Of a stretch of 30,570 nucleotides of DNA, positions 238-17,389 are shown piece after piece. Below the pieces are notes generated by a model. That model was given only the letters and a program-made list of their open reading frames with translations, was not told the origin of the DNA and did no database searches. The stretch comes from a virus (lineage: Duplodnaviria; Heunggongvirae; Uroviricota; Caudoviricetes): the IMG/VR virus record IMGVR_UViG_2617270980_000010; one strand, written 5' to 3'. How positions within the stretch are numbered: the stretch's first letter is position 1; each line of letters begins with the position of its first letter. Both the position numbers and the translations under genes were made by a program.

Positions 238-240
238 TTA

Positions 241-2010: not shown

Positions 2011-2012
2011 TT

Positions 2013-2189
2013 ATGAATGAGCCTCGTTGCATTGCTCAGTTATTGCGTAACGAGAGCCCGAGGGCGATGGATTTCACTATCACCCACGGCAGAGGGCGCA
2101 AGGGCATCATCATCCGCACCAAAAAACCGAGCGCTATAAGCGCCGTTTTTGCTTTTCTGAAATCCCGGAGGTTCTGGAAATGCCTGTAA
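2013..2189 (+). CDS. small hypothetical early protein (P2 orf78 position)
   Basis: ATG 2 nt after the cox stop, 58 codons; assigned by position only. Confidence 0.35.
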   Translation: MNEPRCIAQLLRNESPRAMDFTITHGRGRKGIIIRTKKPSAISAVFAFLKSRRFWKCL

Positions 2190-2680
2190 TGACACTCGGT
2201 ATCGTGGAGAAACAGCCAGCAGCTCTGCGCGGTCTGATTGGTAAATATCTGGCCGCGCCTCGCTGGCAGGATAGCTGCGACTTTTACAATCAGATGATGG
2301 AACGTGAGCGCCTGACCGTTTGTTTTCATGCTCAGTTAAAGCAGCGTCACGCGACGATGCGTTTTGAAGAAATGAACGATGTAGACCGTGAGCGATTAGT
2401 TTGCGCTATTGATGAGCTGCGTGCTGCATTTTCCAGACGTCGACAGGTTGGCGCGAGTGAGTATGCGTATATTAGTTTTTTGACGGTCAGCCAACGCCGC
2501 ACTTTGTTTATGCATGCCGGATTAACTGAAAAAGAATTTAATCAGCCTTACTGGCGTATTAATGAAGATTCCTGTTATTGGCGTGATGCCTTATTTCGTG
2601 CATTGCGAGAGCTTTTTAATTTATTTGAATATGCACCAACAATATTAACTTCGGTAAAGCCTGAGCAATATCTGCATTAA
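2180..2680 (+). CDS. early-operon protein at the position and size of P2 replication protein B
   Basis: 166 aa, GGAGG 9 nt upstream; same position and length as P2 gpB. Sequence identity to gpB was not verified. Confidence 0.5.
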   Translation: MPVMTLGIVEKQPAALRGLIGKYLAAPRWQDSCDFYNQMMERERLTVCFHAQLKQRHATMRFEEMNDVDRERLVCAIDELRAAFSRRRQVGASEYAYISFLTVSQRRTLFMHAGLTEKEFNQPYWRINEDSCYWRDALFRALRELFNLFEYAPTILTSVKPEQYLH

Positions 2681-2743
2681 ATAAACAACCGTAGTTTTTT
2701 ACGCACTTAATTGTGCTGGGCTTCTTTTTGTCTGGAGAAAGTC

Positions 2744-2968
2744 ATGCATACAGTAACAGGAAAGCAGCGCAGTAACTTCTCATTAATGTTGCAACAGGCG
2801 CGAGCCGAAGCACAGGCCGATGCGGCCACGCGCTTTTCCTCTCATCTGGACGGTTTAATCCGTCATATAGCTGGCGCAGATTTGTCGCGCGTGGAGATTG
2901 TCGAGTTACTCAGTCAGGAATCCATCAAGTTCCATAATATCGGTCTTTCTCGCGGGGAGTCTCTTTAA
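2744..2968 (+). CDS. hypothetical early protein (P2 orf80 position)
   Basis: ATG at 2744 preceded by GGAGAAA; 74 aa; the stop overlaps the next start. Confidence 0.5.
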
Positions 2969-3264
2969 TGTCTCTGATGCACTCCGTATTACTTAATAAC
3001 TGGCTAAAGATTGCGGTTATGAAAAACGGTGAATTATCGCTTGCTGACATTAAGCGCGATAAAGAAACCGGAGCAATGACGGAATCAACCATCGCTATTT
3101 ATTCGAGTGAATTAAACCTCCTGACGGATGTGGTCAATTTGCTTGTGAAACGCGCCGTTTTTCATAAGCAAATCACCACCGTCGATGAATTATCGAAATT
3201 AACCATTGAGCTGACCGGTTACTGCGTCGGTGAGTTTAAAAAGCTGAACAAAGAGAGGAGCTAA
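2968..3264 (+). CDS. hypothetical early protein (P2 orf81 position)
   Basis: 98-aa ORF translationally coupled to its neighbours. Confidence 0.5.
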   Translation: MSLMHSVLLNNWLKIAVMKNGELSLADIKRDKETGAMTESTIAIYSSELNLLTDVVNLLVKRAVFHKQITTVDELSKLTIELTGYCVGEFKKLNKERS

Positions 3265-3268
3265 ATCA

Positions 3269-3493
3269 ATGCCGGATTATATGGATCACATTCAGGAGCG
3301 ACAGACGGAATCACTGACTCGCCAGATTAACGCCGCTCGGGTGAAGCCGTGCGGCGCTGCTGCGTTGGTTTGCGAAGAATGTGACGCACCAATCCCTGCC
3401 GACCACCGTGCGGCATATCCGTCGGCGACACGCTGTGTCTACTGTCAGTCAGCGCTTGAGTCAAAAGCTAAACACTTTCGGGGGCAGGCATGA
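3269..3493 (+). CDS. TraR/DksA-family C4 zinc-finger protein (P2 orf82-like)
   Basis: 74 aa with a four-cysteine motif (C..C..CxxC...CxxC) in CGAAALVCEECDAP...RCVYCQ. Confidence 0.7.
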   Translation: MPDYMDHIQERQTESLTRQINAARVKPCGAAALVCEECDAPIPADHRAAYPSATRCVYCQSALESKAKHFRGQA

Positions 3494-3765
3494 GCATTCG
3501 TATCGAGATTGGCGAGCGCTATGTCGTCACAAGTGACCGTTTTCAGTTCATTTTGCAGGAGAAAAAGACCGCCGAAACAGGGAAGAGTGCCGGTAAAGAG
3601 TGGCTGGATGTTGTCGGCTATTACCCCAAATTAAACCAGCTCGTTTCTGGTCTGATTCATCACGATATTTTGAGCGGCAACGCTGTCTCTTTTGAAGCGC
3701 TGAGCGCTCAGGTTGAGCTGCTCGGTCAGCAGTGTTTACGGGCTTTTGACGCAAATGGCCGTTGA
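3490..3765 (+). CDS. hypothetical early protein (P2 orf83 position)
   Basis: 91-aa ORF, start overlapping the previous stop (ATGA). Confidence 0.5.
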   Translation: MSIRIEIGERYVVTSDRFQFILQEKKTAETGKSAGKEWLDVVGYYPKLNQLVSGLIHHDILSGNAVSFEALSAQVELLGQQCLRAFDANGR

Positions 3766-6043
3766 TATTCGGGGGCGTTCTGCCCCTACACCGCCACCAC
3801 CATTTGCAAAAGGCACCGGCAAAGAGTTTGCCGGTGTTTACTCATGGAACGCGCCGCGTGAGGCTATTGGGCGCGAGAGACCCCTTACACGTGACGAGCT
3901 GCGTCAGGTGCAAGGCGTTTTATCCAAAATTGACCGCCTGCCTTACTTTTTAAGTTCTCTGTTTACCTCGCGCTATGAATATATCAGGCGCAACAAAAGC
4001 CCTGTGCATGGGCTGTATTTCCTCAAGTCGACATTTCTGCGCCGGTTGTGGCCGCGCATTGAGCGGGTTAATCAACGTAACGAAATGAATACAGAGGCGT
4101 CGCTGCTGTTTCTTGCTGAAAGTGAGAGTTACGCGCGCCTGCCGGGGATGAACGATAAAGAGCTGAAAAAATTTGCGTCTCGTATCGCCTCGCAGCTTTT
4201 CATTATGTACGAGGAGTTAAGCGACGCATGGGCTGAGGCGCACGGTGGCAAAGAGTCGCTTTTTACCGATGAGGCTCAGGCGCACCTGTACGGTCATGTT
4301 GCTGGCGCAGCTCGTGCTTTTAATGTTGCCCCGCTTTTCTGGAAGAAATACCGCAAAGGCCAGATGACAATCCGACAGGCATTTTCCGCCGTCGCTCGAC
4401 TGATTAACGATGAATGGTGGACTATCCAGCTTAAGGCGCAGCGCATGCGCTGGCATGAAGCGCTGCTGATTGCTGCAGGTGAGGTGAATAAAGACCGCTC
4501 GCCGTATGCCAGTAAACACGCCGTCCGTGATGTGCATGCACGTCGCCTGGCAAATCTTGAATACCTGAAATCCTGCGAGCTGGAAAACAAAGTTACCGGC
4601 GAACGTATCGACCTTATCAGCAAAGTGATGGGGAGTATTTCCAATCCTGAAATTCGCCGCATGGAACTGATGAACACCATCGCGGGGATTGAGCGTTATG
4701 CCGCTGCTGAGGGTGATGTCGGTATGTTTATCACGCTGACTGCACCGTCGAAGTATCACCCGACACGTCAGGTCGGGAAGGGTAAAGATAAGACTGTACA
4801 GCTTAATCATGGCTGGAATGGTGAGGCTTACACTCCGAAGGATGCGCAGCGTTACCTTTGCCGTATCTGGAGCCTGATGCGTACCGCTTTCAAAGATAAT
4901 GATTTGCAGGTTTACGGTATGCGTGTTGTCGAACCGCACCACGACGGGACGCCGCACTGGCACATGATGCTGTTTTGCAAGCGCCAGCAGCGCAAAGAAA
5001 TTACCGAAATTATGCGTCGTTATGCTCTCAAAGAAGATGGCGACGAGCGCGGTGCAGCTCGCAACCGCTTTCAGGCTAAGCACCTGAACAAAGGCGGTGC
5101 GGCCGGGTACATCGCGAAATACATCGCCAAAAATATCGACGGTTACGCACTTGATGGCGAGCTCGATAAAGATACCGGCAAGCCGCTCAAAGATACCGCC
5201 GCCGCTGTTACTGCATGGGCGTCAACGTGGCGAATACCTCAGTTTAAGCCGATTGGTCTGCCGACGATGGGGGCTTACCGTGAGCTGCGCAAGCTGCCTC
5301 GCGGGGTCAGTATTGCTGACGAGTTTGACGAGCGTGTCGAAGCAGCACGCGCCGCGGCTGATGGCGGCGATTTCGACCTGTATATCACCGCTCAGGGCGG
5401 CGCAAATGTCCCGCGCGACGGCCAGACCGTCAGGGTCGCCCGTAGCGTCAGTGATGAGGTTAACGACTACGAAGAGGATATCGAGAGGGTGGTCGGTATT
5501 TACGCGCCTCACCTCGGCGCGCGTCACGTTCACATTACCCGGTCATCAGAATGGCGCATCGTTCCAAAGGTTTTGGCCGTTGAGCCTTTGACCTTAAAAA
5601 GCGGCATCGCCGCGCCTCGGAGTCCTGTCAATAACTGTGGAAAGCTCACCGGCGGTGACGTTCCAGTTATGACCCCAACACCGTCTGAGCACGCCGCAGC
5701 GGTGCTAAATCTCGTTGATGACGGGGTTATCGCATGGGATGACCCCGAAGTCGTGACGGCGCTCAGAGATGCATTAAAACACGACGCGCCACAGCAAAAT
5801 CGCCAGCAAAGAAGCGGAGAGCCGTTAAAACCGCATGACGTCGCCCCATCAGGCAGGCTGACTAAATCCGAGCGCGCGCAAATACCGAGCATTCGCTTTG
5901 ACCTTGCGCAGCATGGCATCACCCCGAAACGCTGGGAGCTTGAGGCGCTGGCGCGCGGGGCGTCCGTGACATACGACGGGCAGAAATTCACATATCCGGT
6001 TGCTGATGAGTGGCCGGGGTTCTCAACAAATCAACAATGGTGA
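3755..6043 (+). CDS. A: replication initiation endonuclease gpA (rolling-circle initiator)
   Basis: About 762 aa from MAVDIRGR. Conserved P2 gpA blocks recalled: NAPREA.GRERPLTRDE, VVEPHHDGTPHWHMMLF and GYIAKYIAKNIDGYALDG. Confidence 0.9.
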   Translation: MAVDIRGRSAPTPPPPFAKGTGKEFAGVYSWNAPREAIGRERPLTRDELRQVQGVLSKIDRLPYFLSSLFTSRYEYIRRNKSPVHGLYFLKSTFLRRLWPRIERVNQRNEMNTEASLLFLAESESYARLPGMNDKELKKFASRIASQLFIMYEELSDAWAEAHGGKESLFTDEAQAHLYGHVAGAARAFNVAPLFWKKYRKGQMTIRQAFSAVARLINDEWWTIQLKAQRMRWHEALLIAAGEVNKDRSPYASKHAVRDVHARRLANLEYLKSCELENKVTGERIDLISKVMGSISNPEIRRMELMNTIAGIERYAAAEGDVGMFITLTAPSKYHPTRQVGKGKDKTVQLNHGWNGEAYTPKDAQRYLCRIWSLMRTAFKDNDLQVYGMRVVEPHHDGTPHWHMMLFCKRQQRKEITEIMRRYALKEDGDERGAARNRFQAKHLNKGGAAGYIAKYIAKNIDGYALDGELDKDTGKPLKDTAAAVTAWASTWRIPQFKPIGLPTMGAYRELRKLPRGVSIADEFDERVEAARAAADGGDFDLYITAQGGANVPRDGQTVRVARSVSDEVNDYEEDIERVVGIYAPHLGARHVHITRSSEWRIVPKVLAVEPLTLKSGIAAPRSPVNNCGKLTGGDVPVMTPTPSEHAAAVLNLVDDGVIAWDDPEVVTALRDALKHDAPQQNRQQRSGEPLKPHDVAPSGRLTKSERAQIPSIRFDLAQHGITPKRWELEALARGASVTYDGQKFTYPVADEWPGFSTNQQW

Positions 6044-6048
6044 TTGAA

Positions 6049-6225
6049 ATGGCTGATTTTGCATCGACAAATAGAACCGCTAGTTTTGAGGAATGGCACG
6101 AGCAATTAATAGATTATGCAGAGCTGCGCGGCGGTAGCGCTTCTGACGCGGATGCATGGAGAGAAGATTATGATTCTGGCCGAAGTGTTGCGGATGCCTG
6201 GCATGATGCATGGGGGGATGACTGA
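6049..6225 (+). CDS. small acidic hypothetical protein (P2 orf91 position)
   Basis: ATG at 6049 with GGTGA 5 nt upstream, 58 codons. The ORF-track start at 6010 lies inside gene A. Confidence 0.4.
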   Translation: MADFASTNRTASFEEWHEQLIDYAELRGGSASDADAWREDYDSGRSVADAWHDAWGDD

Positions 6226-6461
6226 TGCATGTAATTCGAGGTGAAATACCGCAGCACCAGACCAGAAATATTAAGTTAATGGCTATCGTTCATCGCCTGC
6301 AGCAGATAATGGTCAATGAGAATTTGACCCCCGCCGAGCTGGTCGGGTGCGCCGAAATAGTCAGGGATAATTACGGCAGGCTGTACGATATTAGTAATCC
6401 GAAAATTGAGGCGTTTACACCGGCGAGAGGTCCGATTATTCCGCCGCCCCGCCGACCATAG
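6225..6461 (+). CDS. hypothetical protein in the old/tin cargo slot
   Basis: 78-aa ORF whose ATG overlaps the previous stop (TGATG). No recognisable motif. Confidence 0.45.
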   Translation: MHVIRGEIPQHQTRNIKLMAIVHRLQQIMVNENLTPAELVGCAEIVRDNYGRLYDISNPKIEAFTPARGPIIPPPRRP

Positions 6462-6743
6462 CAAACGCCGCCGGTGCTGAAACTCGCTTTCAGTGCTGGC
6501 GGGGTTGAACAACGAGCCCCGCGAGGCGTTAGCCTGCCCCGTTGAGACCGACCCAAACCGGCACGATTAAAACCGGTTTTATTATGCCATTTTCCCGCGA
6601 TTTCCCCGTTTTTTAGCCGTGCATGCAACAGGTGCATGGTTTTGCATGCGTCAGGCTTGCACGTTCTGGCCGTGCGCCGCCAGAGCTGGCGCGGATCCAG
6701 AGTGGTCATGCAACTGCATTAAAACCGACCCATAAAGCGGGCA

Positions 6744-6762
6744 GGCGTGGCGGGGAAAGCAT
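6744..6762. other. cos cohesive-end sequence GGCGTGGCGGGGAAAGCAT
   Basis: Seen directly at 6744..6762 in the GC-rich noncoding stretch just beyond the portal gene, where P2-family cos lies. From memory it matches the 19-nt cohesive end of the P2/186 family (186-type variant). Confidence 0.6.
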
Positions 6763-6906
6763 TGCGCGCCAGCGGGGGGGCGTAATAATAAAAATTATCG
6801 TCTGAGCGCGTCGTGATGGCGCTGTCGTGGTTGCTGTCGGCTCGTTGGTGGTCTGGCGTGGTCGTGCGCGTGTGGCGCGTCTGAGGCGTGATGGTTTCGG
6901 GGTATG

Positions 6907-6928
6907 AAAAAGCCGCCATGCTGGCGGC
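6907..6928 (-). terminator. rho-independent terminator of the P-Q late operon
   Basis: On the minus strand, hairpin GCCGCCA-GC-ATGGCGGC followed by a T5 run, immediately downstream of the portal stop. Confidence 0.55.
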
Positions 6929-6939
6929 TTGAGGGGGAG

Positions 6940-7962
6940 TTATTCCGGGTTATCGAGGGTGTACTCTTTGAACCTGATGACCTCCATGCCGAGCCAGTCG
7001 TTTACCTCCCTGAACCTGTCCTGCAGGGGTGACAGCTCGTTACGCACAAATACCTTTGCCACCTTCTCAACGTCACCGAGTGAACCGATATTCTCGGGCT
7101 TGCCGCCCATGAGCTGGAAAGGTACGCGGTGCGCGTCCATCAGGTCGGCGGCACTGGCTTTCTTGATGTTGAAAAAGTCATCCTTTGTGGCGACCTCGCT
7201 CAGTGGCACGATTTTGATGCCGTCCGGTTTTCCGCCGGGAGCGTAGAAAAACAGGTTCTTAAAGTTGCCGAGACCTTTCGAGTTGCGCATCGCCTCGCGC
7301 AGCGATTCGACGTCGGTCGCACTTTGCGCCGGGTCGGTCACATACATGATGTAACCCGCGTGCGCGCCGTTCTGGTAATACTTGCGGCGGAACAGCGTCG
7401 CGGATTCATTCAGCCAGGCAGAATTAAGCGCGCTGAGATATTCGGGCAGGCCGTAAATCTCCTGATTAATGTCGGGCTCCAGCAGGTGAAACACGGTATC
7501 AGGCGCGAACTCATGCGGTAGAGTGAAGTTTTCCACAAACCAGAAAATCGAGTCGTCGACCCCGCGCCGGGTGTATTTGGCCGGTGAGGCCAGTAGCTTG
7601 ATTAACTGGCCGGTGATGCTGTGGCGCTGCTCAAGAAAGGCATTGCCGAAAACCAGATAGTCGAGTGCAAAGCGGCTGAAATCCTGACGGGATAGCAACG
7701 GGTGCGGAATGTAGGTGCTCGCGAGCACGTTACGCTTAACGTAAATCGGTGAGCTGTGATGTACAGCAGAGCGCAGGCTCTTTGCCAGCCCGGAGAAGCT
7801 GACCGGCGGCTCGTACCATTTGCCGTTACTGATGCACTCGACGTAATCCAGAATATCGCGCTTATCGAGCACCGGCACCGGCTCGCCGAAGGTGAACGCC
7901 TCCATTTTTTGCGGGGCGCTAGCGGTCGTGGCGACTGTTTTGCGTGGCTTGCGCTTGCTCAT
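6940..7962 (-). CDS. Q: portal protein gpQ
   Basis: 340 aa; N-terminus MSKRKPRK...AFTFGEPVPVLDKRDILDYVECISNGKWYEPPV matches P2 gpQ as recalled. Confidence 0.93.
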   Translation of the reverse strand: MSKRKPRKTVATTASAPQKMEAFTFGEPVPVLDKRDILDYVECISNGKWYEPPVSFSGLAKSLRSAVHHSSPIYVKRNVLASTYIPHPLLSRQDFSRFALDYLVFGNAFLEQRHSITGQLIKLLASPAKYTRRGVDDSIFWFVENFTLPHEFAPDTVFHLLEPDINQEIYGLPEYLSALNSAWLNESATLFRRKYYQNGAHAGYIMYVTDPAQSATDVESLREAMRNSKGLGNFKNLFFYAPGGKPDGIKIVPLSEVATKDDFFNIKKASAADLMDAHRVPFQLMGGKPENIGSLGDVEKVAKVFVRNELSPLQDRFREVNDWLGMEVIRFKEYTLDNPE

Positions 7963-8705
7963 GCTGCCACCTCACCCGCTGCAACAGCGAAAGACCAGTC
8001 GCAGCCAAACAGCAGACGATAATCATCGTCGCTGTATTCGCGTTTAATTTCCTCGGGCGCAAAGAGATTACACCCGCGCTGGCATGCTGCATCCAGAGTG
8101 ACCGACTGACGCCAGACACCATCTGTGCAGAATACGCTGTCGCCGGTATTGATTAGCGGTGACGGTCGGTGCTTGCGGGTTGTGCCGTTCCATACCCTGA
8201 ATGCTGCGTAGCTGTCTGATGGTGTGGTGAACATCGTCAGATTGTGGCGTTTATGACTGGCGATAGCTGCCGCGATTTTTGCCGCATTTCGCGGGTTACT
8301 GAACCAACCGAACTCATCAAGGTAGACGTTACCCGCCAGCGCGGCGCAATGGGATTCCTCGCCGACAAAGCTGATAACCGCGCCGTCGTCGAGCTGCAGG
8401 GTGTGGCCGTTGCTTGTCATACGGACACCAACGCGCGCCGAAAGGTTACTCATGTACATCAGCGCCACGCGCGCATGCTCAATAGTGTGAGCAAACCAGA
8501 CCTGATTATCACCCGTTGTCAGTGCATCGAGCAGCGCCTCACGGCTAAAGAGCTGCGTTGCGCCAATCTGGAGCGATTTGGTGATGCTGCGGTCGATATT
8601 GAGTTTCCCGACACGCAACCATGTTACCTGATAGTCAAAGCTGTCATTGTGCAGAATATCGGCCATTGCCTGAATCTGGCTTTGTGAGAAAACGTTATTT
8701 TTCAT
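7959..8705 (-). CDS. stand-alone paralog of the terminase ATPase core, inserted between P and Q
   Basis: 248 aa. Aligns by eye at roughly 30-35% identity to residues about 120-375 of the adjacent terminase P (shared FxYQ, KSxQIGAT, FSREALL, TG.NQ, Walker-B-like Y.DE.W, DG.WRQ..T, GC.LF). Its ATG overlaps the P stop (TAATG) and its stop overlaps the Q start. Confidence 0.7.
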   Translation of the reverse strand: MKNNVFSQSQIQAMADILHNDSFDYQVTWLRVGKLNIDRSITKSLQIGATQLFSREALLDALTTGDNQVWFAHTIEHARVALMYMSNLSARVGVRMTSNGHTLQLDDGAVISFVGEESHCAALAGNVYLDEFGWFSNPRNAAKIAAAIASHKRHNLTMFTTPSDSYAAFRVWNGTTRKHRPSPLINTGDSVFCTDGVWRQSVTLDAACQRGCNLFAPEEIKREYSDDDYRLLFGCDWSFAVAAGEVAA

Positions 8706-8707
8706 TA

Positions 8708-8911
8708 ATTAAACTCCAGAATAGATTTGGGCTGCATGCCGCTACCGGCGGAAAGCGGTTCGTTTAACAGGGCGTGCATGGTCGCCCATGCAATATCGGC
8801 TTGACTGGCTTCCTCGGTGCGGCTGGCCTCGTAGGTGGCGCTGCGCCCGCTGCTGGTCATGGTTTTGCGGATGGACATAAACGACTGCGTGACGTCGGTT
8901 GCCCCGGCGTC
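8708..8911 (-). pseudogene. P: in-frame 3' remainder of terminase P beyond the internal stop
   Basis: Hand translation of the minus strand in the same frame past the TAA gives DAGATDVTQSFMSIRKTMTSSGRSATYEASRTEEASQADIAWATMHALLNEPLSAGSGMQPKSILEFN, stop. This is the expected terminase C-terminus. Confidence 0.7.
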
Positions 8912-10474
8912 TTACTCCAGACAGCCGCGGCGAATGGTGTCTTTTGCCTTTAGCACCATCGCGGTTTTCATTTCAGGCGTGTAACGGATGCCGCGTGCCG
9001 CCGGGTAGAATGAGCGCACCAACTGGAATACGCCGAGACCGAGGCCGGTTGCGTCAATGCCGATGTATTCGACGTTGTATTTCTCGGTCAGTTTGCGGAT
9101 GCCCTCAGCCTGAGCGGCAAAGTCCATGCCTTTCCACTGGTGGCGCTCCAGCATGCGGAATTTGCCACCCGAGACCACCGGCGGCGCGAGCACAACGCAC
9201 CCGGCACTGTCGCCGGTGTGTGACGGGTCGTAGCCAATCCAGACAGGTCGCGAGCCGAACGGATGGTCGGCGAACGGGGCAAAGTCCTCCCATTCCTCCA
9301 TCACATCGACCATGCAGCGCTGCAGCTCCTCGAACGGGAATACCGACGCCTTATCGTCGACAAACTCGCACATAAACAGGTTCTTAAAGTCCTCATCACT
9401 GTTTTCGCGTTTGAGCTGGTCGAGGTCGAACAGGGTGCAGCCACCGGCAAGGGCATCCTCAATGGTGACAATCTGCCGCCACTGGCCATCGTCGCAGAGC
9501 TGACCACCGGCGAGCGCGCTGTGACTGATGTCGATTTCGATGCGGTCGGTAATGCGGCTGCGCCCCTTGTTGAACAGCTCGCCAGACCAGAAGGGGTAAG
9601 CGCCGTGCGCCAGCGTTGAAGGTGTTGAAAAGTAGGTTGAGCGCAGGTGCTTCTGCGAGGCCATGCCCGACGCGACTTTGCGCAGCTTCTGGAAATTCGG
9701 GATCCAGAATATTTCATCGACATACAGGTCGCCGTTATGGCTCTGCGCAGTGTTGGAATTGGTACCGAGAAAAATCAGCTTTGCGCCGTTGTTGCCGATG
9801 ACAATCGGGTCGCCGGTCAGGTCGACGTCGACCAGTCGCGCAAACTGGATGATGTATTCACGGAACACGTAAGCCTGCGTTTTGCTGGCCGACAGAAAAA
9901 TCTGGTTATGGCCGGTCTTGAGCGCGCGCAGCAGCGCCTCGCGGGAGAAATAGAACGTCGCGCCAATCTGGCGGGATTTGAGAATGTCGCGAATACGGTG
10001 CGCCAGTCCTGCGCGGTACCACTGCAACTGGTATTCGAAAGACTGGTCGAAAAATAATTCCTCCAGTTTTTCGATAGCCTCGTCGCTGAAAAAGTTCTTT
10101 TTCGGCTTCTTACGTTCGCCCTTGTTACGGTTGGCGACATTGGGGTTAAGGTCGACCTCGTTCCCGGTCTGGCTGTAGCGGTTAACGCGCGCCAGTCGCT
10201 CAATCTGCCGCCCGAGCAGGTCAATCTCTTTGAAGTCGCCGCCTGACTTTTGCGGCTTGGCGATAAGCTGAATCAGGCGCGCCTCAAGGCTGCTTTCAAC
10301 GCGGGAAATCGGTGCGATGCCGTCCCAGCCGTCGCGCTGCTTCCAGCTCTGCACGGTCGGGCGCTTGACCTGCAGCATTTCGGCAATCTGTGGCACGGAA
10401 AACCCCTGCCAGTAAAGCAGCGATGCCTGCCGTCGCGGGTCATGCAACAAGGTTGTATCGGTGGAAATGGTCAT
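8912..10474 (-). CDS. P: terminase ATPase subunit gpP, truncated after 520 codons by an in-frame TAA
   Basis: N-terminus MTISTDTTLLHDPRRQASLLYWQGFSVPQIAEMLQ and the rest match P2 gpP as recalled (590 aa). The ORF ends ...RRGCLE at a TAA on plus 8912..8914. Confidence 0.85.
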   Translation of the reverse strand: MTISTDTTLLHDPRRQASLLYWQGFSVPQIAEMLQVKRPTVQSWKQRDGWDGIAPISRVESSLEARLIQLIAKPQKSGGDFKEIDLLGRQIERLARVNRYSQTGNEVDLNPNVANRNKGERKKPKKNFFSDEAIEKLEELFFDQSFEYQLQWYRAGLAHRIRDILKSRQIGATFYFSREALLRALKTGHNQIFLSASKTQAYVFREYIIQFARLVDVDLTGDPIVIGNNGAKLIFLGTNSNTAQSHNGDLYVDEIFWIPNFQKLRKVASGMASQKHLRSTYFSTPSTLAHGAYPFWSGELFNKGRSRITDRIEIDISHSALAGGQLCDDGQWRQIVTIEDALAGGCTLFDLDQLKRENSDEDFKNLFMCEFVDDKASVFPFEELQRCMVDVMEEWEDFAPFADHPFGSRPVWIGYDPSHTGDSAGCVVLAPPVVSGGKFRMLERHQWKGMDFAAQAEGIRKLTEKYNVEYIGIDATGLGLGVFQLVRSFYPAARGIRYTPEMKTAMVLKAKDTIRRGCLE

Positions 10475-10639
10475 TGATGCCTCGCCGTAGTGGATTCAGG
10501 GCAAGGCTACTTAATGGCCGTCAGTGATTCGCTAAGGTGCTGTTGTGTGGGCGGTTGTCCAGTCGTCATTGGTGGTCTGGTGTGTCCTGAGTCTGGAAAC
10601 TGGCGGTGACCAGTAACCCCAACCTCAGGACTCCTGACA
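10475..10639. promoter_or_regulatory. divergent late promoter region (P_P leftward, P_O rightward)
   Basis: Intergenic region between divergent P and O, as in P2. Ogr-type upstream elements could not be assigned confidently by eye. Confidence 0.45.
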
Positions 10640-11494
10640 ATGGCAAAAAAAGTCTCAAAATTCTTTCGCATCGGCGTCGAGGGTGACACCTGCGACGGCC
10701 GCATTATCAGCGGTAACGATATTCAGGAAATGGCCGAATCGTTTGACCCTCGCGTCTACGGTTGCCGCATTAACCTTGAACATATTCGCGGTCTCTTTCC
10801 TGATGGCGACTTCAAACGCTTAGGCGATGTGGTTGAACTGAAAGCCGAGAAGATTGACGACGATTCCGCGCTTAACGGCAAATGGGCGTTGTTCGCCAGA
10901 ATCACACCGACCGATGACCTGATTGCGATGAATAAAAAATTGCAGAAGGTCTACACCTCAATGGAAATTCAGCCGAATTTTGCCAATACCGGCAAATGCT
11001 ACCTCGTCGGCCTTGCGGTCACCGATGACCCGGCGAGCCTCGGCACTGAATACCTCGAATTCTGCCGCAACGCGAAGCACAACCCGCTGCAGCGCTTTAA
11101 GGCCAACCCTGAAAACGTCTTTTCCGCTGCCACGCTGGCCGAACTGGAGTTTGAAGACGCTCCCGACACGGTGCTCAACAGCCTGGCAGATAAGGTGAAA
11201 GCCATTTTCAGCCGTAAGCAGGTCAGCGACGATGCGCGCCTGAATGATGTGCATGAGGCGGTGACCACCGTCAGCGAGCATGTGCAGACCAATCTGACCG
11301 CGCAGGATAAGCGCATTTCCGATATGGAAACCGCGTTTGCCACTTTCAAACAGGAACTGACCGGCAAGGTTGATGAAACCAGCCAGGCATTTTCCGCCCT
11401 GAAAACCACCCTCGACAAAACCGAAAGTTTCAGCCAGCCGCGACGCACGAAAGCCAGCGGCGGTGGCGGCGATGAGCTGCTGACCGACTGCTGA
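10640..11494 (+). CDS. O: capsid scaffolding protein gpO
   Basis: 284 aa, same length and position as P2 gpO. Confidence 0.88.
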   Translation: MAKKVSKFFRIGVEGDTCDGRIISGNDIQEMAESFDPRVYGCRINLEHIRGLFPDGDFKRLGDVVELKAEKIDDDSALNGKWALFARITPTDDLIAMNKKLQKVYTSMEIQPNFANTGKCYLVGLAVTDDPASLGTEYLEFCRNAKHNPLQRFKANPENVFSAATLAELEFEDAPDTVLNSLADKVKAIFSRKQVSDDARLNDVHEAVTTVSEHVQTNLTAQDKRISDMETAFATFKQELTGKVDETSQAFSALKTTLDKTESFSQPRRTKASGGGGDELLTDC

Positions 11495-11569
11495 TAAACC
11501 GCAGACCGAAACCGGGCGGCAACCCCGCCCGATGCTGTGACTAACCGATTAATTCAAACAGGAAATACT

Positions 11570-12637
11570 ATGCGTCAGGAAACCCGTTTTAAGTTCAATG
11601 CCTATCTGACCCGCGTTGCCGAGCTGAACGGCATCAGTGCTGATGACGTCGACAAAAAATTCTCCGTCGAGCCGTCCGTCACGCAAACGCTGATGAACAC
11701 CGTGCAGGCGTCATCCGCGTTTTTGCAGACGATTAACATTCTGCCGGTCGCAGAAATGAAGGGTGAGAAAATCGGCGTAGGCGTGACCGGTACCATCGCC
11801 AGCACGACCGACACCTCGGGCGATAAAGAGCGCCAGACCGCAGATTTCACCGCGCTTGAGTCCAATAAGTACGAGTGCAATCAGATTAACTTTGATTTCC
11901 ACCTGACCTATAAACGCCTCGACCTTTGGGCGCGTTTTCAGGACTTCCAGCGCCGCATCCGCGACGCCATTGTCCAGCGTCAGGCACTCGATTTCATCAT
12001 GGCCGGGTTCAACGGTACCACCCGCGCTGATACCTCTGACCGTGTTAAAAACCCGATGCTGCAGGATGTGGCCGTCGGCTGGTTGCAAAAGTACCGCAAC
12101 GAAGCCCCGGCACGCGTGATGAGCAACATCACCGACGCTGACGGTAAGGTCGTTTCAGCGGTGATTCGTGTCGGTAAGAACGGCGACTATGAGAACCTCG
12201 ACGCGCTGGTGATGGACGGTACCAACACCCTGATTGACGAAATTTATCAGGATGACCCGAAACTCGTTGCTATCGTTGTTCGTAAGCTGCTGGCCGACAA
12301 ATATTTCCCGCTGGTGAACAAACAGCAGGAAAACACCGAGTCGCTCGCGGCGGATATCATCATCAGCCAGAAGCGCATCGGCAACCTGCCAGCCGTGCGC
12401 GTGCCGCACTTCCCGGCGAACGCGGTATTCGTGACCACGCTGGAAAATCTCTCTATCTACTTCATGGATGAGAGCCACCGCCGCAGCATTGATGAGAACC
12501 CGAAAAAAGACCGCGTGGAAAACTACGAGTCGATGAACATCGACTATGTGGTCGAGGCGTATGCCGCCGGGTGCCTGCTGGAAAACATCACCCTGGGCGA
12601 TTTCACCGCACCTGCAGCACCGGAAAGCGGAGAGTAA
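11570..12637 (+). CDS. N: major capsid protein gpN
   Basis: Start at MRQETRFKFNAY with AGGAAA Shine-Dalgarno. Conserved blocks QDVAVGWLQKYRNEAPARVMS and SQKRIGNLPAVRVP as in P2 gpN. Confidence 0.9.
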   Translation: MRQETRFKFNAYLTRVAELNGISADDVDKKFSVEPSVTQTLMNTVQASSAFLQTINILPVAEMKGEKIGVGVTGTIASTTDTSGDKERQTADFTALESNKYECNQINFDFHLTYKRLDLWARFQDFQRRIRDAIVQRQALDFIMAGFNGTTRADTSDRVKNPMLQDVAVGWLQKYRNEAPARVMSNITDADGKVVSAVIRVGKNGDYENLDALVMDGTNTLIDEIYQDDPKLVAIVVRKLLADKYFPLVNKQQENTESLAADIIISQKRIGNLPAVRVPHFPANAVFVTTLENLSIYFMDESHRRSIDENPKKDRVENYESMNIDYVVEAYAAGCLLENITLGDFTAPAAPESGE

Positions 12638-12641
12638 GCCT

Positions 12642-13391
12642 ATGACGAGCCCCGCTCAACGTCACATGATGCGGGTCTCGGCCTCTCAAGCCGCGCAGCG
12701 GGAACAAGCCCCGCTGAGCCACGCAACCGCCTACGAGCAGATGCTGGTAAAGCTGGCCGAAGACCGCCGCACGTTAAAAAACATCCGTTCAAACGAGCGT
12801 AAAGCCGAGAAAAAGCGCGAGCTGCTGCCGTTCTATGCGCCGTGGGTTGCCGGTGTGCTGGCTGATGGCCGTGGTGCGCAGGATGACATTCTGATGACCG
12901 TCATGCTGTGGCGTCTCGATGCCGGTGATATCGCTGGCGCGCTGGAAATTGCCCCCTACGCGCTGAAATACGGCCTCACTTCTGACCATCGCCGCACGAC
13001 GCCTTACATGCTGGTTGAGGAAGTGGCGCTTGCCGCGCAGCGCCTGCGCGATGCCGGTGAGCCTGTCGACCTCGCATTATTGCAGACCACCCTCAGCCTG
13101 ACCGACGGTGCTGACGTTCCCGATATGGTGCGCGCTCGTCTGCATAAGGTGACTGGCCTGACCCTGCGCGATACCAGTCAGAGCGCCGAAGCGCTGGCGC
13201 AGTTTCAGCGCGCGATGCAGCTCGACCGCAATGCCGGTGTGCGCAAAGAGATTGAGCGACTGGAACGCGCATTGAAGCCAAAGCCAGATGCTGCACCCCG
13301 TAAAACGACTAAACCGCGCACGCGCAAACCTGCCACCAAACCGGCGGCAAAGCGCGGGCGTCCACCAAAGGCGGTAAAAACCGCTGGTTAA
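12642..13391 (+). CDS. M: terminase endonuclease (small) subunit gpM
   Basis: ATG at 12642 just after the N stop, 249 aa, basic C-terminal tail; position and size of P2 gpM. Confidence 0.85.
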   Translation: MTSPAQRHMMRVSASQAAQREQAPLSHATAYEQMLVKLAEDRRTLKNIRSNERKAEKKRELLPFYAPWVAGVLADGRGAQDDILMTVMLWRLDAGDIAGALEIAPYALKYGLTSDHRRTTPYMLVEEVALAAQRLRDAGEPVDLALLQTTLSLTDGADVPDMVRARLHKVTGLTLRDTSQSAEALAQFQRAMQLDRNAGVRKEIERLERALKPKPDAAPRKTTKPRTRKPATKPAAKRGRPPKAVKTAG

Positions 13392-13484
13392 CAGAACGCT
13401 CCCCGAGCCGGGCGGCACGCCGGTCAAAGCGGGTTTTGACCCTGACGGCGACCGGCGTCCACCGCCCAACCTAATGAGGTTGTC

Positions 13485-13994
13485 ATGACGACAGTAATAC
13501 TGAATCAGCCCGACGAACCGCAGGACGTACCGGGTGTGGTGATTCCCGCACCGGAGACGGGCGACGCAGTGATTAAAAACACGTTCTTTTTCCCTGATGT
13601 GGATCCGAAGCGCGTGCGTGAGCTGATGCGCCTTGAGCAGACGGTTTCCGATGCGCGCCTGCGCAACGCCATCAAGACCGGCATGGCGGAAACCAATGCG
13701 GAGCTTTATGACTACCGGCTGCGCCAGATTGCCGCCGGGTTTAAGACACTGGCCGACGTGCCTGACGCCGAGGAAATCGACGGTGAGAATGTGCGCATTT
13801 TCCACTACCTGAGCGCCGTGACGGCGATGGCAACCGCCACCCTGTATGAGCGTTATCGCGGGGTTGAGGCCACCGGCAAGGGTGACAAAAAAGCCGACAG
13901 CGTCGAAACCACCATTGATGACCTGTGGCGGGATATGCGCTGGTCGGTATCGCGCCTGCAGGATAAGCCGCGCTGCATCGTGGGGCAGCTCTGA
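13485..13994 (+). CDS. L: head completion/stabilisation protein gpL
   Basis: 169 aa with KNTFFFPDVDPKRVRE and GDKKADS...WRDMRW as in P2 gpL. Confidence 0.88.
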   Translation: MTTVILNQPDEPQDVPGVVIPAPETGDAVIKNTFFFPDVDPKRVRELMRLEQTVSDARLRNAIKTGMAETNAELYDYRLRQIAAGFKTLADVPDAEEIDGENVRIFHYLSAVTAMATATLYERYRGVEATGKGDKKADSVETTIDDLWRDMRWSVSRLQDKPRCIVGQL

Positions 13995-14197
13995 TGAAAG
14001 TCTACGCGATGCAGGGCGACACCCTCGACGCGCTTTGTGCCCGGTATTATGGGCGCACTGAGGGCGTGGTCGAGACGGTGCTGCAGGCTAATCCCGGCCT
14101 GTCTGAGCTGGGCGTCATTCTGCCGCATGGCACGGCGATTGACCTGCCAGACGTTGAAACATCACCCACGGCGGAGGCCCTGAACCTATGGGACTGA
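13994..14197 (+). CDS. X: tail protein X (LysM-like)
   Basis: 67 aa, same size and position as P2 gpX. Confidence 0.8.
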   Translation: MKVYAMQGDTLDALCARYYGRTEGVVETVLQANPGLSELGVILPHGTAIDLPDVETSPTAEALNLWD

Positions 14198-14409
14198 GTA
14201 TGGAAAAAATCACCACGTTTATCGCCTACTGGCTGGCCGTTGGGCTGGCGTATTTCGGGGCAATGTCGCCCGAAAAACTGGCGCTGTATGTGGGTAGTCT
14301 GTGCGCCATTTTTACGGCGGCGGTAAATTTCTGGTACCGACGCAAAACCTTTCGTTACCTGACCGAAATGGGAATCGACAAAGGGGTGACCCGTGAGCTC
14401 AATCGTTAA
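14188..14409 (+). CDS. holin (probable pinholin, two TM segments)
   Basis: 73-aa protein with two hydrophobic segments and a charged C-terminus, directly upstream of the endolysin. Confidence 0.65.
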   Translation: MGLSMEKITTFIAYWLAVGLAYFGAMSPEKLALYVGSLCAIFTAAVNFWYRRKTFRYLTEMGIDKGVTRELNR

Positions 14410-14902
14410 ACGTTGCAGTGTGGCCGCAGTGCTGGCGCTGGCGGCACTGATGCCTGATTTTCGTCTGCTGAATACCTCGCCTGATGGTCTGGCACTGATT
14501 GCCGACCTCGAAGGGTGTCGCCTGGCACCTTACCAGTGCAGCGCGGGCGTGTGGACGTCAGGCATCGGCCACACTGCAGGGGTGGTACCGAAACGCGATA
14601 TCACTGAGCGCGAAGCGGCGACAAATCTGGTCGCCGACGTGCTGAATACTGAGCGCCGTCTCGCGGTCTGCGTGCCGGTCACCATGCCGCAGCCGGTTTA
14701 CGACGCGCTGGTCAGTTTCTCTTTTAACGTCGGCACCGGCGCGGCCTGTCGCTCGACGCTGGTCTCTTACATCAAGCGTCATCAGTGGTGGCAGGCATGC
14801 GACCAGCTCACCCGTTGGGTGTACGTCAACGGGGAGCGTAGTACCGGCCTCGAAAATCGACGCCAGCGTGAGCGTGCTTACTGCCTGAAGGGGGTGAAAT
14901 GA
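14393..14902 (+). CDS. SAR endolysin (T4-lysozyme-like glycoside hydrolase)
   Basis: GTG start after AGGGG. N-terminal hydrophobic signal-anchor (VAAVLALAALM) followed by an E-x8-C-x5-T catalytic pattern (DLEGCRLAPYQCSAGVWT), as in SAR lysozymes such as P1 Lyz. Confidence 0.85.
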   Translation: MSSIVKRCSVAAVLALAALMPDFRLLNTSPDGLALIADLEGCRLAPYQCSAGVWTSGIGHTAGVVPKRDITEREAATNLVADVLNTERRLAVCVPVTMPQPVYDALVSFSFNVGTGAACRSTLVSYIKRHQWWQACDQLTRWVYVNGERSTGLENRRQRERAYCLKGVK

Positions 14903-15312
14903 AAGTGTTAGCCGTGCTGTTAGTGTTGTCCGTGCTCGGGCTGCTGTGGTTGCGCCATGAGAACGGCAATTTAACCCGCTCCTTTGAGACAGCAAACCGC
15001 GTCGCGAGCGAACAAAAGACGACGATTGGCATGCTGAAAAATCAGCTCAGTGTTGCCGGTCAGATTGCCAGACGTAATGAATCTGCGCAGGTGGCACTGC
15101 GTGAACAGCTCGAAAAAGCTAGCGAGGAAGCCAGCCGCCGCGAGCAGACGATAACGAGGTTACTTAATGAAAATGAAGCCTTTCGCCGCTGGTATAACGC
15201 TGCTTTGCCTGATGTTGTGCGTCGGCTGCACACCCGCACCGCCTGTGCCAGCGCCGGTGATTGTGGTCAGCGGATGCCCGAGGGTGAGCCTTTGCCCGAT
15301 GCCGGGAAGTGA
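14899..15312 (+). CDS. lysB: LysB (i-spanin, Rz-like)
   Basis: 137 aa with an N-terminal TM helix and a coiled-coil-like charged body, immediately after the endolysin. Confidence 0.8.
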   Translation: MKVLAVLLVLSVLGLLWLRHENGNLTRSFETANRVASEQKTTIGMLKNQLSVAGQIARRNESAQVALREQLEKASEEASRREQTITRLLNENEAFRRWYNAALPDVVRRLHTRTACASAGDCGQRMPEGEPLPDAGK

Positions 15313-15457
15313 CCCGAAAACCAATGGCGACCTGAGCGCGGATATCCGCCGCCTTGAGGGCGCGCTGACCGCCTGCGCGCTGCAGGTTAAAACCGTCAAA
15401 CACTGTCAGGATGAACTCGATGCAGAAGCACAAAAGCCTGCGCAAAGCGCTGATTAA
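15167..15457 (+). CDS. lysC: LysC (o-spanin lipoprotein, Rz1-like) overlapping lysB in another frame
   Basis: 96 aa with a signal peptide, lipobox-like LCVGC and a proline-rich segment, embedded in and extending past lysB. Confidence 0.75.
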   Translation: MKMKPFAAGITLLCLMLCVGCTPAPPVPAPVIVVSGCPRVSLCPMPGSDPKTNGDLSADIRRLEGALTACALQVKTVKHCQDELDAEAQKPAQSAD

Positions 15458-15887
15458 CGCCGTGCCGCAGCTCCGAAACAACCCCGATATGCTGCGCCTG
15501 TTTGCCGACAACGGCCATACCGATTCCCGACTGGCGAACTCGCTGTCGTTTGAAAAGGTGTACGTGCTTAACGTGGTGGTGACCGACTTCACCGGCGACC
15601 TCGATTTGATATTCGTGCCGGTGCAGGCGTGGCTGCGTGAACATCAGCCGGACATTATGACCACCGACGACGGGCGGGAAAAAGGATTCACCTGGATTAT
15701 TGATATCAATAACGACGATTCGCTCGATATCAGTATCAGCCTGAGGCTCACCGAGCGCACGCTTGTCAAAGAGGTCGACGGCGCGCTGCACGTCAGCTAT
15801 GCCCATGAGCCGCCACTGCCTGAGCCGGTGACGCGCCCGGTTGCTATGTATGCAAATGGTGAATTAGTGAGCCAGTGGGATGAGTGA
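15411..15887 (+). CDS. R: tail completion protein gpR
   Basis: 158 aa, position and size of P2 gpR. Confidence 0.85.
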   Translation: MNSMQKHKSLRKALINAVPQLRNNPDMLRLFADNGHTDSRLANSLSFEKVYVLNVVVTDFTGDLDLIFVPVQAWLREHQPDIMTTDDGREKGFTWIIDINNDDSLDISISLRLTERTLVKEVDGALHVSYAHEPPLPEPVTRPVAMYANGELVSQWDE

Positions 15888-16329
15888 ATTAACCGCGCTG
15901 CAGGAACGCCTTGCCGGTCTGATTGCCAGCCTGTCACCGGTGGCGCGTCGGCAAATGGCGGCTGAGATTGCGAAAAAGCTGCGTACCAGTCAGCAACAGC
16001 GTATCAAGCGCCAGCAGGCACCCGACGGCACCCCGTATGCGGCGCGAAAGCGCCAGCCGGTGCGGAGCAAGAAAGGTCGGATTAAACGTGAAATGTTCGC
16101 CAAACTGCGCACCAGTCGCTTTATGAAAGCCAAAGGCAGCGACAGTGCGGCGGTGGTGGAGTTTACCGGCAAGGTGCAGCGCATGGCGCGGGTGCATCAG
16201 TACGGCCTCAAAGACCGGCCAAATCGCAACAGCCGGGATGTGCAGTACGAGGCGCGCCCGTTGCTTGGTTTCACCCGCGACGATGAGCAGATGATTGAAG
16301 ACGTCATTATCAGGCACCTCGGCAAATAA
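15880..16329 (+). CDS. S: tail completion / virion morphogenesis protein gpS
   Basis: 149 aa, start overlapping the R stop; position and size of P2 gpS. Confidence 0.85.
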   Translation: MSELTALQERLAGLIASLSPVARRQMAAEIAKKLRTSQQQRIKRQQAPDGTPYAARKRQPVRSKKGRIKREMFAKLRTSRFMKAKGSDSAAVVEFTGKVQRMARVHQYGLKDRPNRNSRDVQYEARPLLGFTRDDEQMIEDVIIRHLGK

Positions 16330-16397
16330 ATATTGTGTGAACCACCACCGGAGCCGCGCGAATTGGCGCGACTCCAGACCAGAGGCATCCTTGCACT

Positions 16398-17039
16398 ATG
16401 AATACGTTATCCACGATACAGGAGCTCGCGCGCGCGATTCGCAACCTCATCCGCTCAGGTGTGGTGACTGAGGTTGATACCGTGCAGGGGCTGTGCCGCG
16501 TACAAAGCGGCGGGATCCAGACCACATGGCTGAACTGGCTGACCACCCGCGCCGGTCGTTCGCGTACATGGTGGGCTCCCTCGGTCGGTGAGCAGGTACT
16601 GCTGCTGGCGATTGGTGGCGAGCTTGATACCGCTTTCGTGCTGCCGGGGATTTTCTCAGACGATAACCCCGCCCCGTCTGCCTCAGCGGATGCGTGGCAT
16701 GTGGTGTTCCCTGATGGCGCGGTTATGGAGTATGAGCCGGAAACCGGTGCGCTGACAGTCAGCGGCATCAAAACTGCCGACGTGACGGCATCGGAGTCCA
16801 TCACCGCCACCGTGCCGGTGGTGCTGGTTAAAGCGGCAGAGCGTATCACCCTCGACACCCCAGAGGTGGTCTGCACCAACAAACTGACGACGGCGACGCT
16901 TGAGGTGCAGAAAGGCGGCACCATGCGAGGAAACATCGAACATACCGGCGGCACGTTGAAATCAAACGGTGTGCAGGTTGATGACCACGGTCACGGTGGC
17001 GTGCAACAGGGCGGGAGCTGGACGGAGGACACTAAATGA
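16398..17039 (+). CDS. V: baseplate spike gpV
   Basis: 213 aa, P2 gpV-like including a C-terminal histidine cluster (HGHGG). Confidence 0.88.
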   Translation: MNTLSTIQELARAIRNLIRSGVVTEVDTVQGLCRVQSGGIQTTWLNWLTTRAGRSRTWWAPSVGEQVLLLAIGGELDTAFVLPGIFSDDNPAPSASADAWHVVFPDGAVMEYEPETGALTVSGIKTADVTASESITATVPVVLVKAAERITLDTPEVVCTNKLTTATLEVQKGGTMRGNIEHTGGTLKSNGVQVDDHGHGGVQQGGSWTEDTK

Positions 17040-17383
17040 CGGCGCGCTATATGGGGATGAACCGCAATACCGGCATCGCTATCCGTGACAGTGAGCATAT
17101 CAGCCAGAGCATGCGCGACATTCTGCTGACGCCGGTCGGCTCGCGAGTAATGCGTCGTGAATATGGCTCGCTTTTGTCGGCGCTGATTGATATGCCACAA
17201 ACCCCGGCGCTCAGGCTGCAAATCATGGTGGCGTGCTATTCCGCGATCCAGAAGTGGGAACCACGTATCAGGCTTACATCCATCAGCTTTGAGCACGGCG
17301 ACACTGGCGAAATGTATGTCGATATTACCGGGATGCGTACCGATACAGGTGCGTCAGTTTCAACCACTGTTTCACTGAGTTAA
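17036..17383 (+). CDS. W: baseplate wedge protein gpW (gp25-like)
   Basis: 115 aa, identical length to P2 gpW, overlapping the V stop. Confidence 0.88.
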   Translation: MTARYMGMNRNTGIAIRDSEHISQSMRDILLTPVGSRVMRREYGSLLSALIDMPQTPALRLQIMVACYSAIQKWEPRIRLTSISFEHGDTGEMYVDITGMRTDTGASVSTTVSLS

Positions 17384-17389
17384 ATCAAT

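What the first reader, a model, noticed from the sequence alone, without database searches (positions are those of the whole stretch)
8909..8914. In-frame TAA truncates the terminase ATPase subunit, with conserved C-terminal codons still open downstream
The terminase frame stops after 520 codons at TAA (plus 8912..8914), but the same frame then stays open for another 67 codons encoding a sequence that matches the expected terminase C-terminus and ends exactly at the start of the next gene. From memory the equivalent P2 codon is a tyrosine, so this looks like a single TAY-to-TAA change. It is either a sequencing error, a recent inactivating mutation that makes the prophage packaging-defective, or a stop that is read through. 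It is notable given the extra ATPase paralog directly downstream.
Basis: partly seen in the sequence, partly recalled or inferred. Interest (0 to 1): 0.6.

Follow-up and report, generated by a model that had tools for sequence, protein, structure and literature searches.

The report
Nonsense mutation truncating a prophage terminase
A single-base change has put a real, inherited stop codon into the DNA-packaging enzyme of a P2/186-like prophage of E. coli, cutting off part of its DNA-cutting active site, so the prophage most likely can no longer package DNA: an ordinary case of prophage decay.

Summary
On the minus strand the large-terminase gene (10474..8705) carries an in-frame TAA at 8914..8912 (codon 521). 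P2, 186, PSP3, EtG, Midge and 13/13 other relatives have TAC/Tyr there. The former frame stays open for 68 codons (not 67) to the natural TAA, which overlaps the ATG of the next gene.

It is not a sequencing error. The same 520-aa product is recorded on 11 contigs and under three GenBank protein accessions from E. coli isolates. One other assembly differs from the window at three other sites yet shares the TAA.

The closest complete genome (14 SNPs in 26.8 kb) has the intact 589-aa gene, an allele seen on 457 contigs.

The stop falls inside the RNase H-like nuclease domain. It removes a helix, the beta-hairpin and the last helix with the family-invariant GHAD motif. That motif aligns with H427/D429 of the G20c terminase, where D429 is indispensable for cleavage. 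A second lineage-specific change in the dead tail turns the invariant His558 into Gln.

Nothing supports readthrough. The downstream ATPase-only paralog is a normal gene of viable 186-like phages and has no nuclease domain.

Verdict: recent inactivating ochre mutation, ordinary, low interest.

The parts
8915..10474 (-). Truncated large-terminase ORF (P2 gpP / 186 Orf12 homolog), 520 codons: HTH (Terminase_5, residues 12-69), ATPase (Terminase_6N, 164-386) and the first ~110 of 155 profile positions of the RNase H-like nuclease domain (413-520).
   Evidence: The exact product is deposited as KDT36797.1 / KDU58329.1 / KDZ92288.1.
8912..8914 (-). Premature ochre codon TAA at codon 521. The ancestral codon is TAC (Tyr); the change is G>T at plus-strand 8912.
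   Evidence: 13/13 outgroups carry G; P2 Y521; the column is aromatic, F/Y/W, in 47 of 53 homologs.
8708..8911 (-). Former codons 522-589 (68 codons), now downstream of the stop. In the intact protein they encode helix 526-533, beta-hairpin 535-550 and the last helix 560-569 with the R552 / G-H558-A-D560 active-site motif.
8801..8803 (-). Former codon 558: CAC (His, invariant in 53/53 diverse homologs) changed to CAA (Gln) by a second lineage-specific G>T at plus-strand 8801.
   Evidence: It is seen only together with the TAA.
8708..8878 (-). 57-codon ORF starting at the internal Met533 of the old frame. Gene callers list it as a separate gene ('putative terminase, ATPase subunit', KDT36798.1). 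It has no Shine-Dalgarno sequence upstream.
8705..8707 (-). Natural terminase stop TAA, overlapping the ATG (8705..8703) of the next gene (TAATG). A GGAG lies 8 nt upstream of that ATG.
   Evidence: same layout in 186, EtG, PSP3 and Midge
7959..8705 (-). 248-aa ATPase-only terminase paralog (Terminase_6N). It is 35% identical to terminase residues 125-371 and keeps KSxQIGAT and DE motifs. The 186 record annotates it as 'similar to Orf12' and the PSP3 record as 'similar to 186 W; orf2'.
6940..7962 (-). Portal protein (P2 gpQ homolog), last gene of the same operon. It may suffer polarity from the upstream stop (inferred only).

Best explanation
A recent, genuine G:C>T:A transversion changed Tyr521 (TAC) of the large terminase to an ochre stop (TAA) in a P2/186-like prophage sitting between cpxP and fieF of an E. 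coli clone. The 520-residue product keeps the HTH and ATPase domains. It loses the last third of the RNase H-like nuclease domain, including the His558/Asp560 metal-binding pair. It therefore should not cut cos DNA, and the domain probably cannot fold. The prophage is then predicted to be packaging-defective and to survive only by vertical inheritance. The tail is decaying neutrally and has already picked up H558Q. Shown here: the mutation, its polarity, its presence in several assemblies, and the location and conservation of the lost residues. Inferred: loss of nuclease and packaging activity, and a possible reduction in expression of the downstream paralog and portal.
For: Ancestral state. 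TAC is found in 186, EtG, PSP3 and Midge, in P2 and in 13/13 outgroup loci.

Intact relatives. The closest genome, E. coli 600029, differs by 14 SNPs in 26,806 nt and has an intact 1770-nt gene. That intact allele is recorded on 457 contigs across Enterobacteriaceae. The 120 best 90%-identity clusters are all 589-590 aa. All 53 diverse homologs extend 59-84 residues past column 521.

The mutation is real. The exact 520-aa product is recorded on 11 contigs and under 3 GenBank protein accessions, with two isolate names shown (3-475-03_S4_C2, 3-105-05_S1_C1), and is also held in the Logan and ENA collections. The IMG/VR contig L006 shares the TAA but differs from the window at 3 other sites.

Function lost. 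Terminase_6C covers residues 413-571 in the intact protein but only profile positions 1-110 of 155 in the truncated one. H558 is invariant, and D560 and R552 are conserved in at least 96% of 53 homologs of 31-50% identity. The AF2 model (pLDDT 90.8) places the stop inside strand 519-522, ahead of a helix, the beta-hairpin and the last helix. The fold matches T4, D6E, Sf6 and HK97 TerL and the G20c nuclease (TMt 0.72). A profile-to-PDB alignment puts 'GHaD' on G20c 'GHDD' and 'iDttG' on 'ADTWG' (E 5e-6). G20c D294, D347 and D429 are indispensable and H427 mutants are impaired (PMC5389553). SPP1 His400 and Asp403 likewise (PMC2685612).

Second hit. H558Q sits in the tail, in the same lineage only.
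Against: There is no experimental or read-level data. All carriers appear to come from one isolate collection, so they are independent libraries but perhaps not independent laboratories. Loss of activity is inferred from homology to G20c and SPP1; no P2-family terminase nuclease has been dissected here. Very low natural UAA readthrough cannot be excluded. Polarity on downstream genes is speculative: the untranslated 207 nt are only mildly C-rich (C 67, G 55) and the next gene has its own GGAG.
Confidence: 0.85

Rival explanations
1. Sequencing or assembly error: the true codon is TAC and the terminase is intact.
For: Two window-specific T>G differences at 6776 and 6779 create a G7 run and look like possible platform errors, so the assembly may not be perfect. 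The carriers appear to come from one project.
Against: The TAA sits in a non-repetitive context (GGAGTAAGACG). It is present in three deposited assemblies, and the protein is also held in the Logan and ENA collections. One assembly differs from the window at three other positions yet shares the TAA. It co-occurs with other shared lineage SNPs at 3587, 8801, 10403 and 13985.
Confidence: 0.03
2. The stop is read through (leaky termination or a host ochre suppressor), giving enough full-length terminase for a viable phage.
For: The downstream frame is still open and 67/68 identical to the intact allele.
Against: With 14 SNPs in 26.8 kb the mutation is too young for an open frame to mean anything. 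No relative has a stop here. From my own knowledge (Poole, Brown & Tate 1995), UAA followed by G is an efficient E. coli terminator. The 131 nt around and after the stop fold no better than shuffles (z 0.34). The window holds no tRNA gene. Any readthrough product would carry Gln at the invariant His558.
Confidence: 0.04
3. Split enzyme: the 520-residue fragment and a 57-residue peptide re-initiated at Met533 (ATG 8878) reassemble into an active nuclease.
For: An in-frame ATG lies 11 codons after the stop, and gene callers list the 57-aa ORF. Re-initiation after nonsense codons is known in E. coli (own knowledge).
Against: There is no Shine-Dalgarno sequence before ATG 8878. Residues 521-532, part of a strand and a helix, would be missing from both pieces. 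The peptide carries H558Q. No relative has such a split.
Confidence: 0.03
4. The truncated, nuclease-dead terminase has been kept for a new role, for example as a dominant-negative poison of the packaging motors of superinfecting P2-like phages, rather than being neutral debris.
For: Two of about nine lineage-derived changes fall in the ~210 nt that encode the nuclease C-terminus, and one hits an invariant catalytic-site residue. The ATPase and HTH domains remain intact.
Against: Only a handful of near-identical assemblies carry it, with no spread and no convergence in other lineages. Two hits are too few for a selection test. A second hit in an already dead tail is what neutral decay predicts.
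Confidence: 0.04

Closest known systems
Large terminase gpP of phage P2 and Orf12 of phage 186 (Peduoviridae; Pfam Terminase_5 + Terminase_6N + Terminase_6C)
   Same: 88% identical to P2 gpP over the whole former reading frame and ~95% DNA identity to 186 and EtG. It has the same operon: terminase, ATPase paralog (186-type), portal, divergent from scaffold/capsid.
   Different: Codon 521 is TAA instead of TAC, so the product is 520 rather than 589-590 residues and lacks the end of the nuclease domain. Former codon 558 is Gln instead of the invariant His.
Structurally characterised terminase nucleases: G20c / P74-26 TerL (PDB 5M1F, 5TGE), SPP1 G2P, T4 gp17
   Same: The intact homolog is predicted to have the same RNase H/RuvC-like fold (TMt 0.72 to the G20c nuclease). 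Its profile aligns D474 with G20c D347 and H558/D560 with H427/D429.
   Different: Sequence identity is only 10-20%. The P2 family has an extra N-terminal HTH domain. The equivalence of catalytic residues is by alignment and was not tested biochemically.
Defective ('grounded') prophages inactivated by point mutations or IS elements
   Same: A single inactivating lesion sits in an essential morphogenesis gene of an otherwise complete prophage. The nearest relative carries a different lesion, IS1 in repB.
   Different: It is very young, with one nonsense plus one missense change. There are no deletions, and every other gene still matches an intact relative.

Membership tests
P2 gpP-type large terminase | N-terminal gpP-like HTH domain (Pfam Terminase_5) | tested here: met
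   Residues 12-69, E 7.5e-27
P2 gpP-type large terminase | ATPase domain (Terminase_6N) with Walker-type motifs | tested here: met
   Residues 164-386, E 5.6e-60. KSRQIGAT and VDE are visible in the translation.
P2 gpP-type large terminase | Complete RNase H-like nuclease domain (Terminase_6C) with all metal-binding residues (D416, D474, H558/D560) | tested here: not met
   The truncated ORF reaches only profile position 110 of 155. H558 and D560 lie after the stop, and H558 is also mutated to Q. It is a disrupted member: a pseudogene of this family.
P2 gpP-type large terminase | Full length of about 589-590 residues, ending at the start of the next gene | tested here: not met
   520 codons. 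The 120 best clusters are 589-590 aa, and all 53 diverse homologs extend 59-84 residues beyond column 521.
Nonsense-inactivated prophage gene (pseudogene) | Sense codon at the site in all close and distant relatives | tested here: met
Nonsense-inactivated prophage gene (pseudogene) | The stop is real, meaning it is reproduced in separate assemblies or isolates | tested here: met
   Raw reads were not inspected.
Nonsense-inactivated prophage gene (pseudogene) | Loss of the encoded activity (cos cleavage, packaging, plaque formation) | not testable with these tools
   Inferred from the loss of residues equivalent to G20c H427/D429 and SPP1 H400/D403.
Programmed stop-codon readthrough / recoding | The in-frame stop is conserved among relatives | tested here: not met
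   No relative has it
Programmed stop-codon readthrough / recoding | Leaky stop context, stimulatory RNA structure or cognate suppressor tRNA | tested here: not met
   UAA-G context, fold z-score 0.34, no tRNA gene in the window. Host suppressors are not testable.
186-type (Eganvirus-like) packaging operon | ATPase-only terminase paralog inserted between the terminase and portal genes | tested here: met
   7959..8705, Terminase_6N only. Collinear with 186, PSP3, EtG and Midge. P2 itself lacks it.

The most novel reading that the evidence does not exclude
The double hit on the nuclease C-terminus (Y521* plus H558Q) reflects selection rather than neutral decay. Under this reading, a nuclease-dead terminase that still has its HTH and ATPase domains is expressed when a related phage trans-activates the resident late promoters. 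It then poisons the invader's packaging motor, making it a domesticated anti-phage decoy.
Probability: 0.03. Interest if true: 0.55.

Novelty: new member of a known kind. Interest (0 to 1): 0.12.

Why it matters
Mostly as annotation hygiene. The two ORFs deposited as separate 'terminase' proteins (520 aa and 57 aa) are one broken gene, and the prophage should be scored as probably defective despite looking complete. It is a clean, datable example of the first step of prophage decay: its nearest relative is broken elsewhere, by IS1 in repB. It also identifies GHAD (H558/D560) as the likely third catalytic element of P2-family terminases. None of this would surprise a specialist.

Tried and rejected
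1. A single-sequence phmmer of the intact terminase against PDB sequences gave only noise. The profile of 53 homologs was needed.

2. Exact-pattern scans for the TAA allele found nothing in one-genome-per-species contigs or in JGI metagenomes, so the allele has no spread beyond the clone. IMG/VR holds one carrier.

3. A look-up for a Y521/Q558 intermediate found none, so the order of the two mutations is unknown.

4. The consensus promoter/terminator scan of 6800..10700 gave nothing above shuffles.

5. The RNA fold after the stop showed no structure, and there are no tRNA genes.

6. A literature search for the isolate names and for the 186 paralog gave nothing useful (one search failed on term length).

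7. The SNPs at 20268, 20469, 20474 and 25651 could not be polarised. The cargo region occurs in only one other complete E. coli genome, and no outgroup aligned at 25651.

Full report
**What the window is.** The window is a complete P2/186-like prophage. Positions 1..20474 are 100% identical to contig JNMX01000008.1 of the draft E. coli genome GCA_000700685.1. The same prophage lies next to cpxP in E. coli strain 600029, with 14 mismatches in 26,806 aligned bases plus an IS1 in repB that the window lacks. The 3' end of the window looks like the host cation-efflux gene fieF, identified from the ORF translation and from memory.

The packaging operon is on the minus strand. It holds the large terminase (10474..8705), a 248-aa ATPase-only paralog (8705..7959) and the portal gene (7962..6940). 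It is divergent from the scaffold and capsid genes.

**Observation.** The terminase frame stops at TAA (plus strand TTA, 8912..8914) after 520 codons. The same frame then stays open for 68 codons, not 67, down to the natural TAA at 8707..8705. That stop overlaps the ATG of the paralog (TAATG), exactly as in 186, EtG, PSP3 and Midge.

- The tail is real terminase sequence: Pfam Terminase_6C positions 115-154, E 1.2e-7.
- Relatives have TAC at this codon: 186, EtG, PSP3 and Midge, 13 of 13 outgroup loci, and P2 gpP, which reads LEY521D.
It is G>T at plus-strand 8912.

**Is the stop real?** It is real.

- The exact 520-aa product is recorded on 11 contigs.
- It is deposited three times in GenBank (KDT36797.1, KDU58329.1, KDZ92288.1). 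Two isolate names are shown, E. coli 3-475-03_S4_C2 and 3-105-05_S1_C1, and the protein is also held in the Logan and ENA collections.
- An IMG/VR prophage contig from another assembly (L006) carries the TAA but differs from the window at 1255, 6776 and 6779.
- The context is not repetitive.
- The allele is rare. There was no hit in one-genome-per-species contigs or JGI metagenomes.
- The intact ancestral allele, identical apart from Y521 and H558, occurs on 457 contigs in several Enterobacteriaceae.

Read pile-ups were not available. The carriers seem to come from one isolate collection, so a small residual doubt remains.

**What is lost.**

- In the intact protein, Pfam finds Terminase_5 (12-69), Terminase_6N (164-386) and the RNase H-like Terminase_6C (413-571). 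The truncated product reaches only profile position 110 of 155.
- In an alignment of 53 full-length homologs of 31-50% identity, H558 is one of 15 invariant columns. D560 (51/53, the other two Glu) and R552 (51/53) are nearly invariant. The consensus is GHADxAWAIMHAL. Every homolog extends 59-84 residues past column 521.
- An AlphaFold2 model of an intact 98%-identical homolog (mean pLDDT 90.8) shows the stop inside strand 519-522. It precedes helix 526-533, the beta-hairpin 535-550 and the final helix 560-569.
- The model matches T4 gp17, D6E, Sf6 and HK97 large terminases, and the isolated G20c nuclease (TM 0.72 normalised to the target).
- A profile search against PDB sequences aligns the family's 'iDttGiG' with G20c 'ADTWGVG' and 'GHaD' with G20c 'GHDD' (E about 5e-6). 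This gives D474 = D347, H558 = H427 and D560 = D429.
[quoted passage not shown] In SPP1, His400 and Asp403 bind the metal next to the beta-hairpin and are required (PMC2685612).

By inference, the 520-residue protein lacks an essential metal ligand and about a third of the nuclease fold. It should not cleave cos.

**A second hit.** Polarising the 14 differences from strain 600029 with outgroups shows that the window lineage is also derived at 8801 (G>T). This changes former codon 558 from CAC (His) to CAA (Gln), the invariant histidine. The change is found only together with the TAA, and no Y521/Q558 intermediate is on record. This fits a tail that is no longer under selection. It also means that even a readthrough product would be impaired.

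**Rivals.**

- *Readthrough.* There is no conservation of the stop. The context is UAA-G. The RNA downstream has no structure (z 0.34) and the window has no tRNA gene.
- *Re-initiation at Met533 (ATG 8878) giving a complementing 57-aa peptide.* There is no Shine-Dalgarno sequence, residues 521-532 would be missing from both pieces, and the peptide carries H558Q.
- *Compensation by the paralog.* It aligns only to ATPase residues 125-371 at 35% identity and has Terminase_6N only. It is a standard gene of isolated 186-like phages. It neither explains nor rescues the truncation.
- *Polarity on the paralog and portal genes.* This is possible but speculative. The 207 untranslated nt are only mildly C-rich, and the paralog has its own GGAG.

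**Comparison and novelty.** This is a disrupted member of the P2 gpP large-terminase family, inside a 186-type packaging operon. As a phenomenon it is the familiar first step of prophage decay. Its nearest relative is independently broken by IS1 in repB. No new mechanism is involved. The public records list the two pieces as separate proteins, and nothing I saw marks them as one broken gene.

**Verdict.** The stop is real, recent, clonally inherited and almost certainly inactivating. It is ordinary. Interest 0.12.

Noticed in passing
window 3587, 6776, 6779, 8801, 8912, 10403, 13985, 20268, 20469, 20474, 22256, 22882, 25651, 27949: Of the 14 SNPs separating the window from the E. coli 600029 prophage, 10 are transversions of the two 8-oxoG ('GO system') classes. 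Seven are A:T>C:G, including three synonymous GGT>GGG. Three are G:C>T:A, including the Y521* and H558Q changes. Only 4 are transitions. Where outgroups allow polarisation, the window lineage is the derived one. This hints at a mutT/mutY-type mutator episode or oxidative damage in the host lineage.
   Followed up: partly
window 6776 and 6779: Two T>G differences 3 nt apart turn GTGGTGG into a G7 run. Both are synonymous in the 66-aa ORF. They are present in the window and in GCA_000700685.1 but absent from the otherwise near-identical IMG/VR contig L006 and from all outgroups. This may be a platform error rather than a mutation.
   Followed up: partly
window 20499..21897 (minus strand): A cargo locus lies between the tail-fibre and tail-sheath genes, the position of the P2 Z/fun hotspot. 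It holds a 404-aa ORF and a 59-aa ORF. There is no PADLOC hit and only sub-threshold Pfam matches (N6_N4_Mtase, DUF6492). Among 5,426 complete E. coli genomes it is found only in strain 600029. It could be an uncharacterised anti-phage or moron gene.
   Followed up: partly
window 7959..8705 (minus strand): The ATPase-only terminase paralog between the terminase and portal genes keeps Walker-like motifs (KSLQIGAT, LDE). It is conserved in 186, PSP3, EtG, Midge, SW9 and SI22 but absent from P2. Only 8 of 238 matching E. coli genomes cover the terminase-paralog junction. I found no described function for it.
   Followed up: partly
L005 26621..27898 (E. coli 600029), corresponding to about window 2495..2503: The closest relative of this prophage has an IS1 inserted in replication gene B, with a 9-bp overlap in the alignment consistent with a target duplication. 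The window copy has repB intact. The two sister prophages therefore carry independent inactivating lesions.
   Followed up: partly
window 28965..29381 (minus strand) and 29650..30570: After ogr at the prophage end lies a 138-aa ORF with a signal-peptide-like N-terminus and no family match. The window then runs into what looks like the host gene fieF (identified from the translation and from memory, cut at the window end). With cpxP on the other side in strain 600029, the prophage appears to sit between cpxP and fieF.
   Followed up: no
window 20268 and 27949: Two further non-synonymous differences from strain 600029: G20W in a 55-aa ORF after the tail fibre and S162F in the gpD homolog. N33S in a DUF5405 protein (3587) is a third. 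None is an obvious knockout.
   Followed up: no
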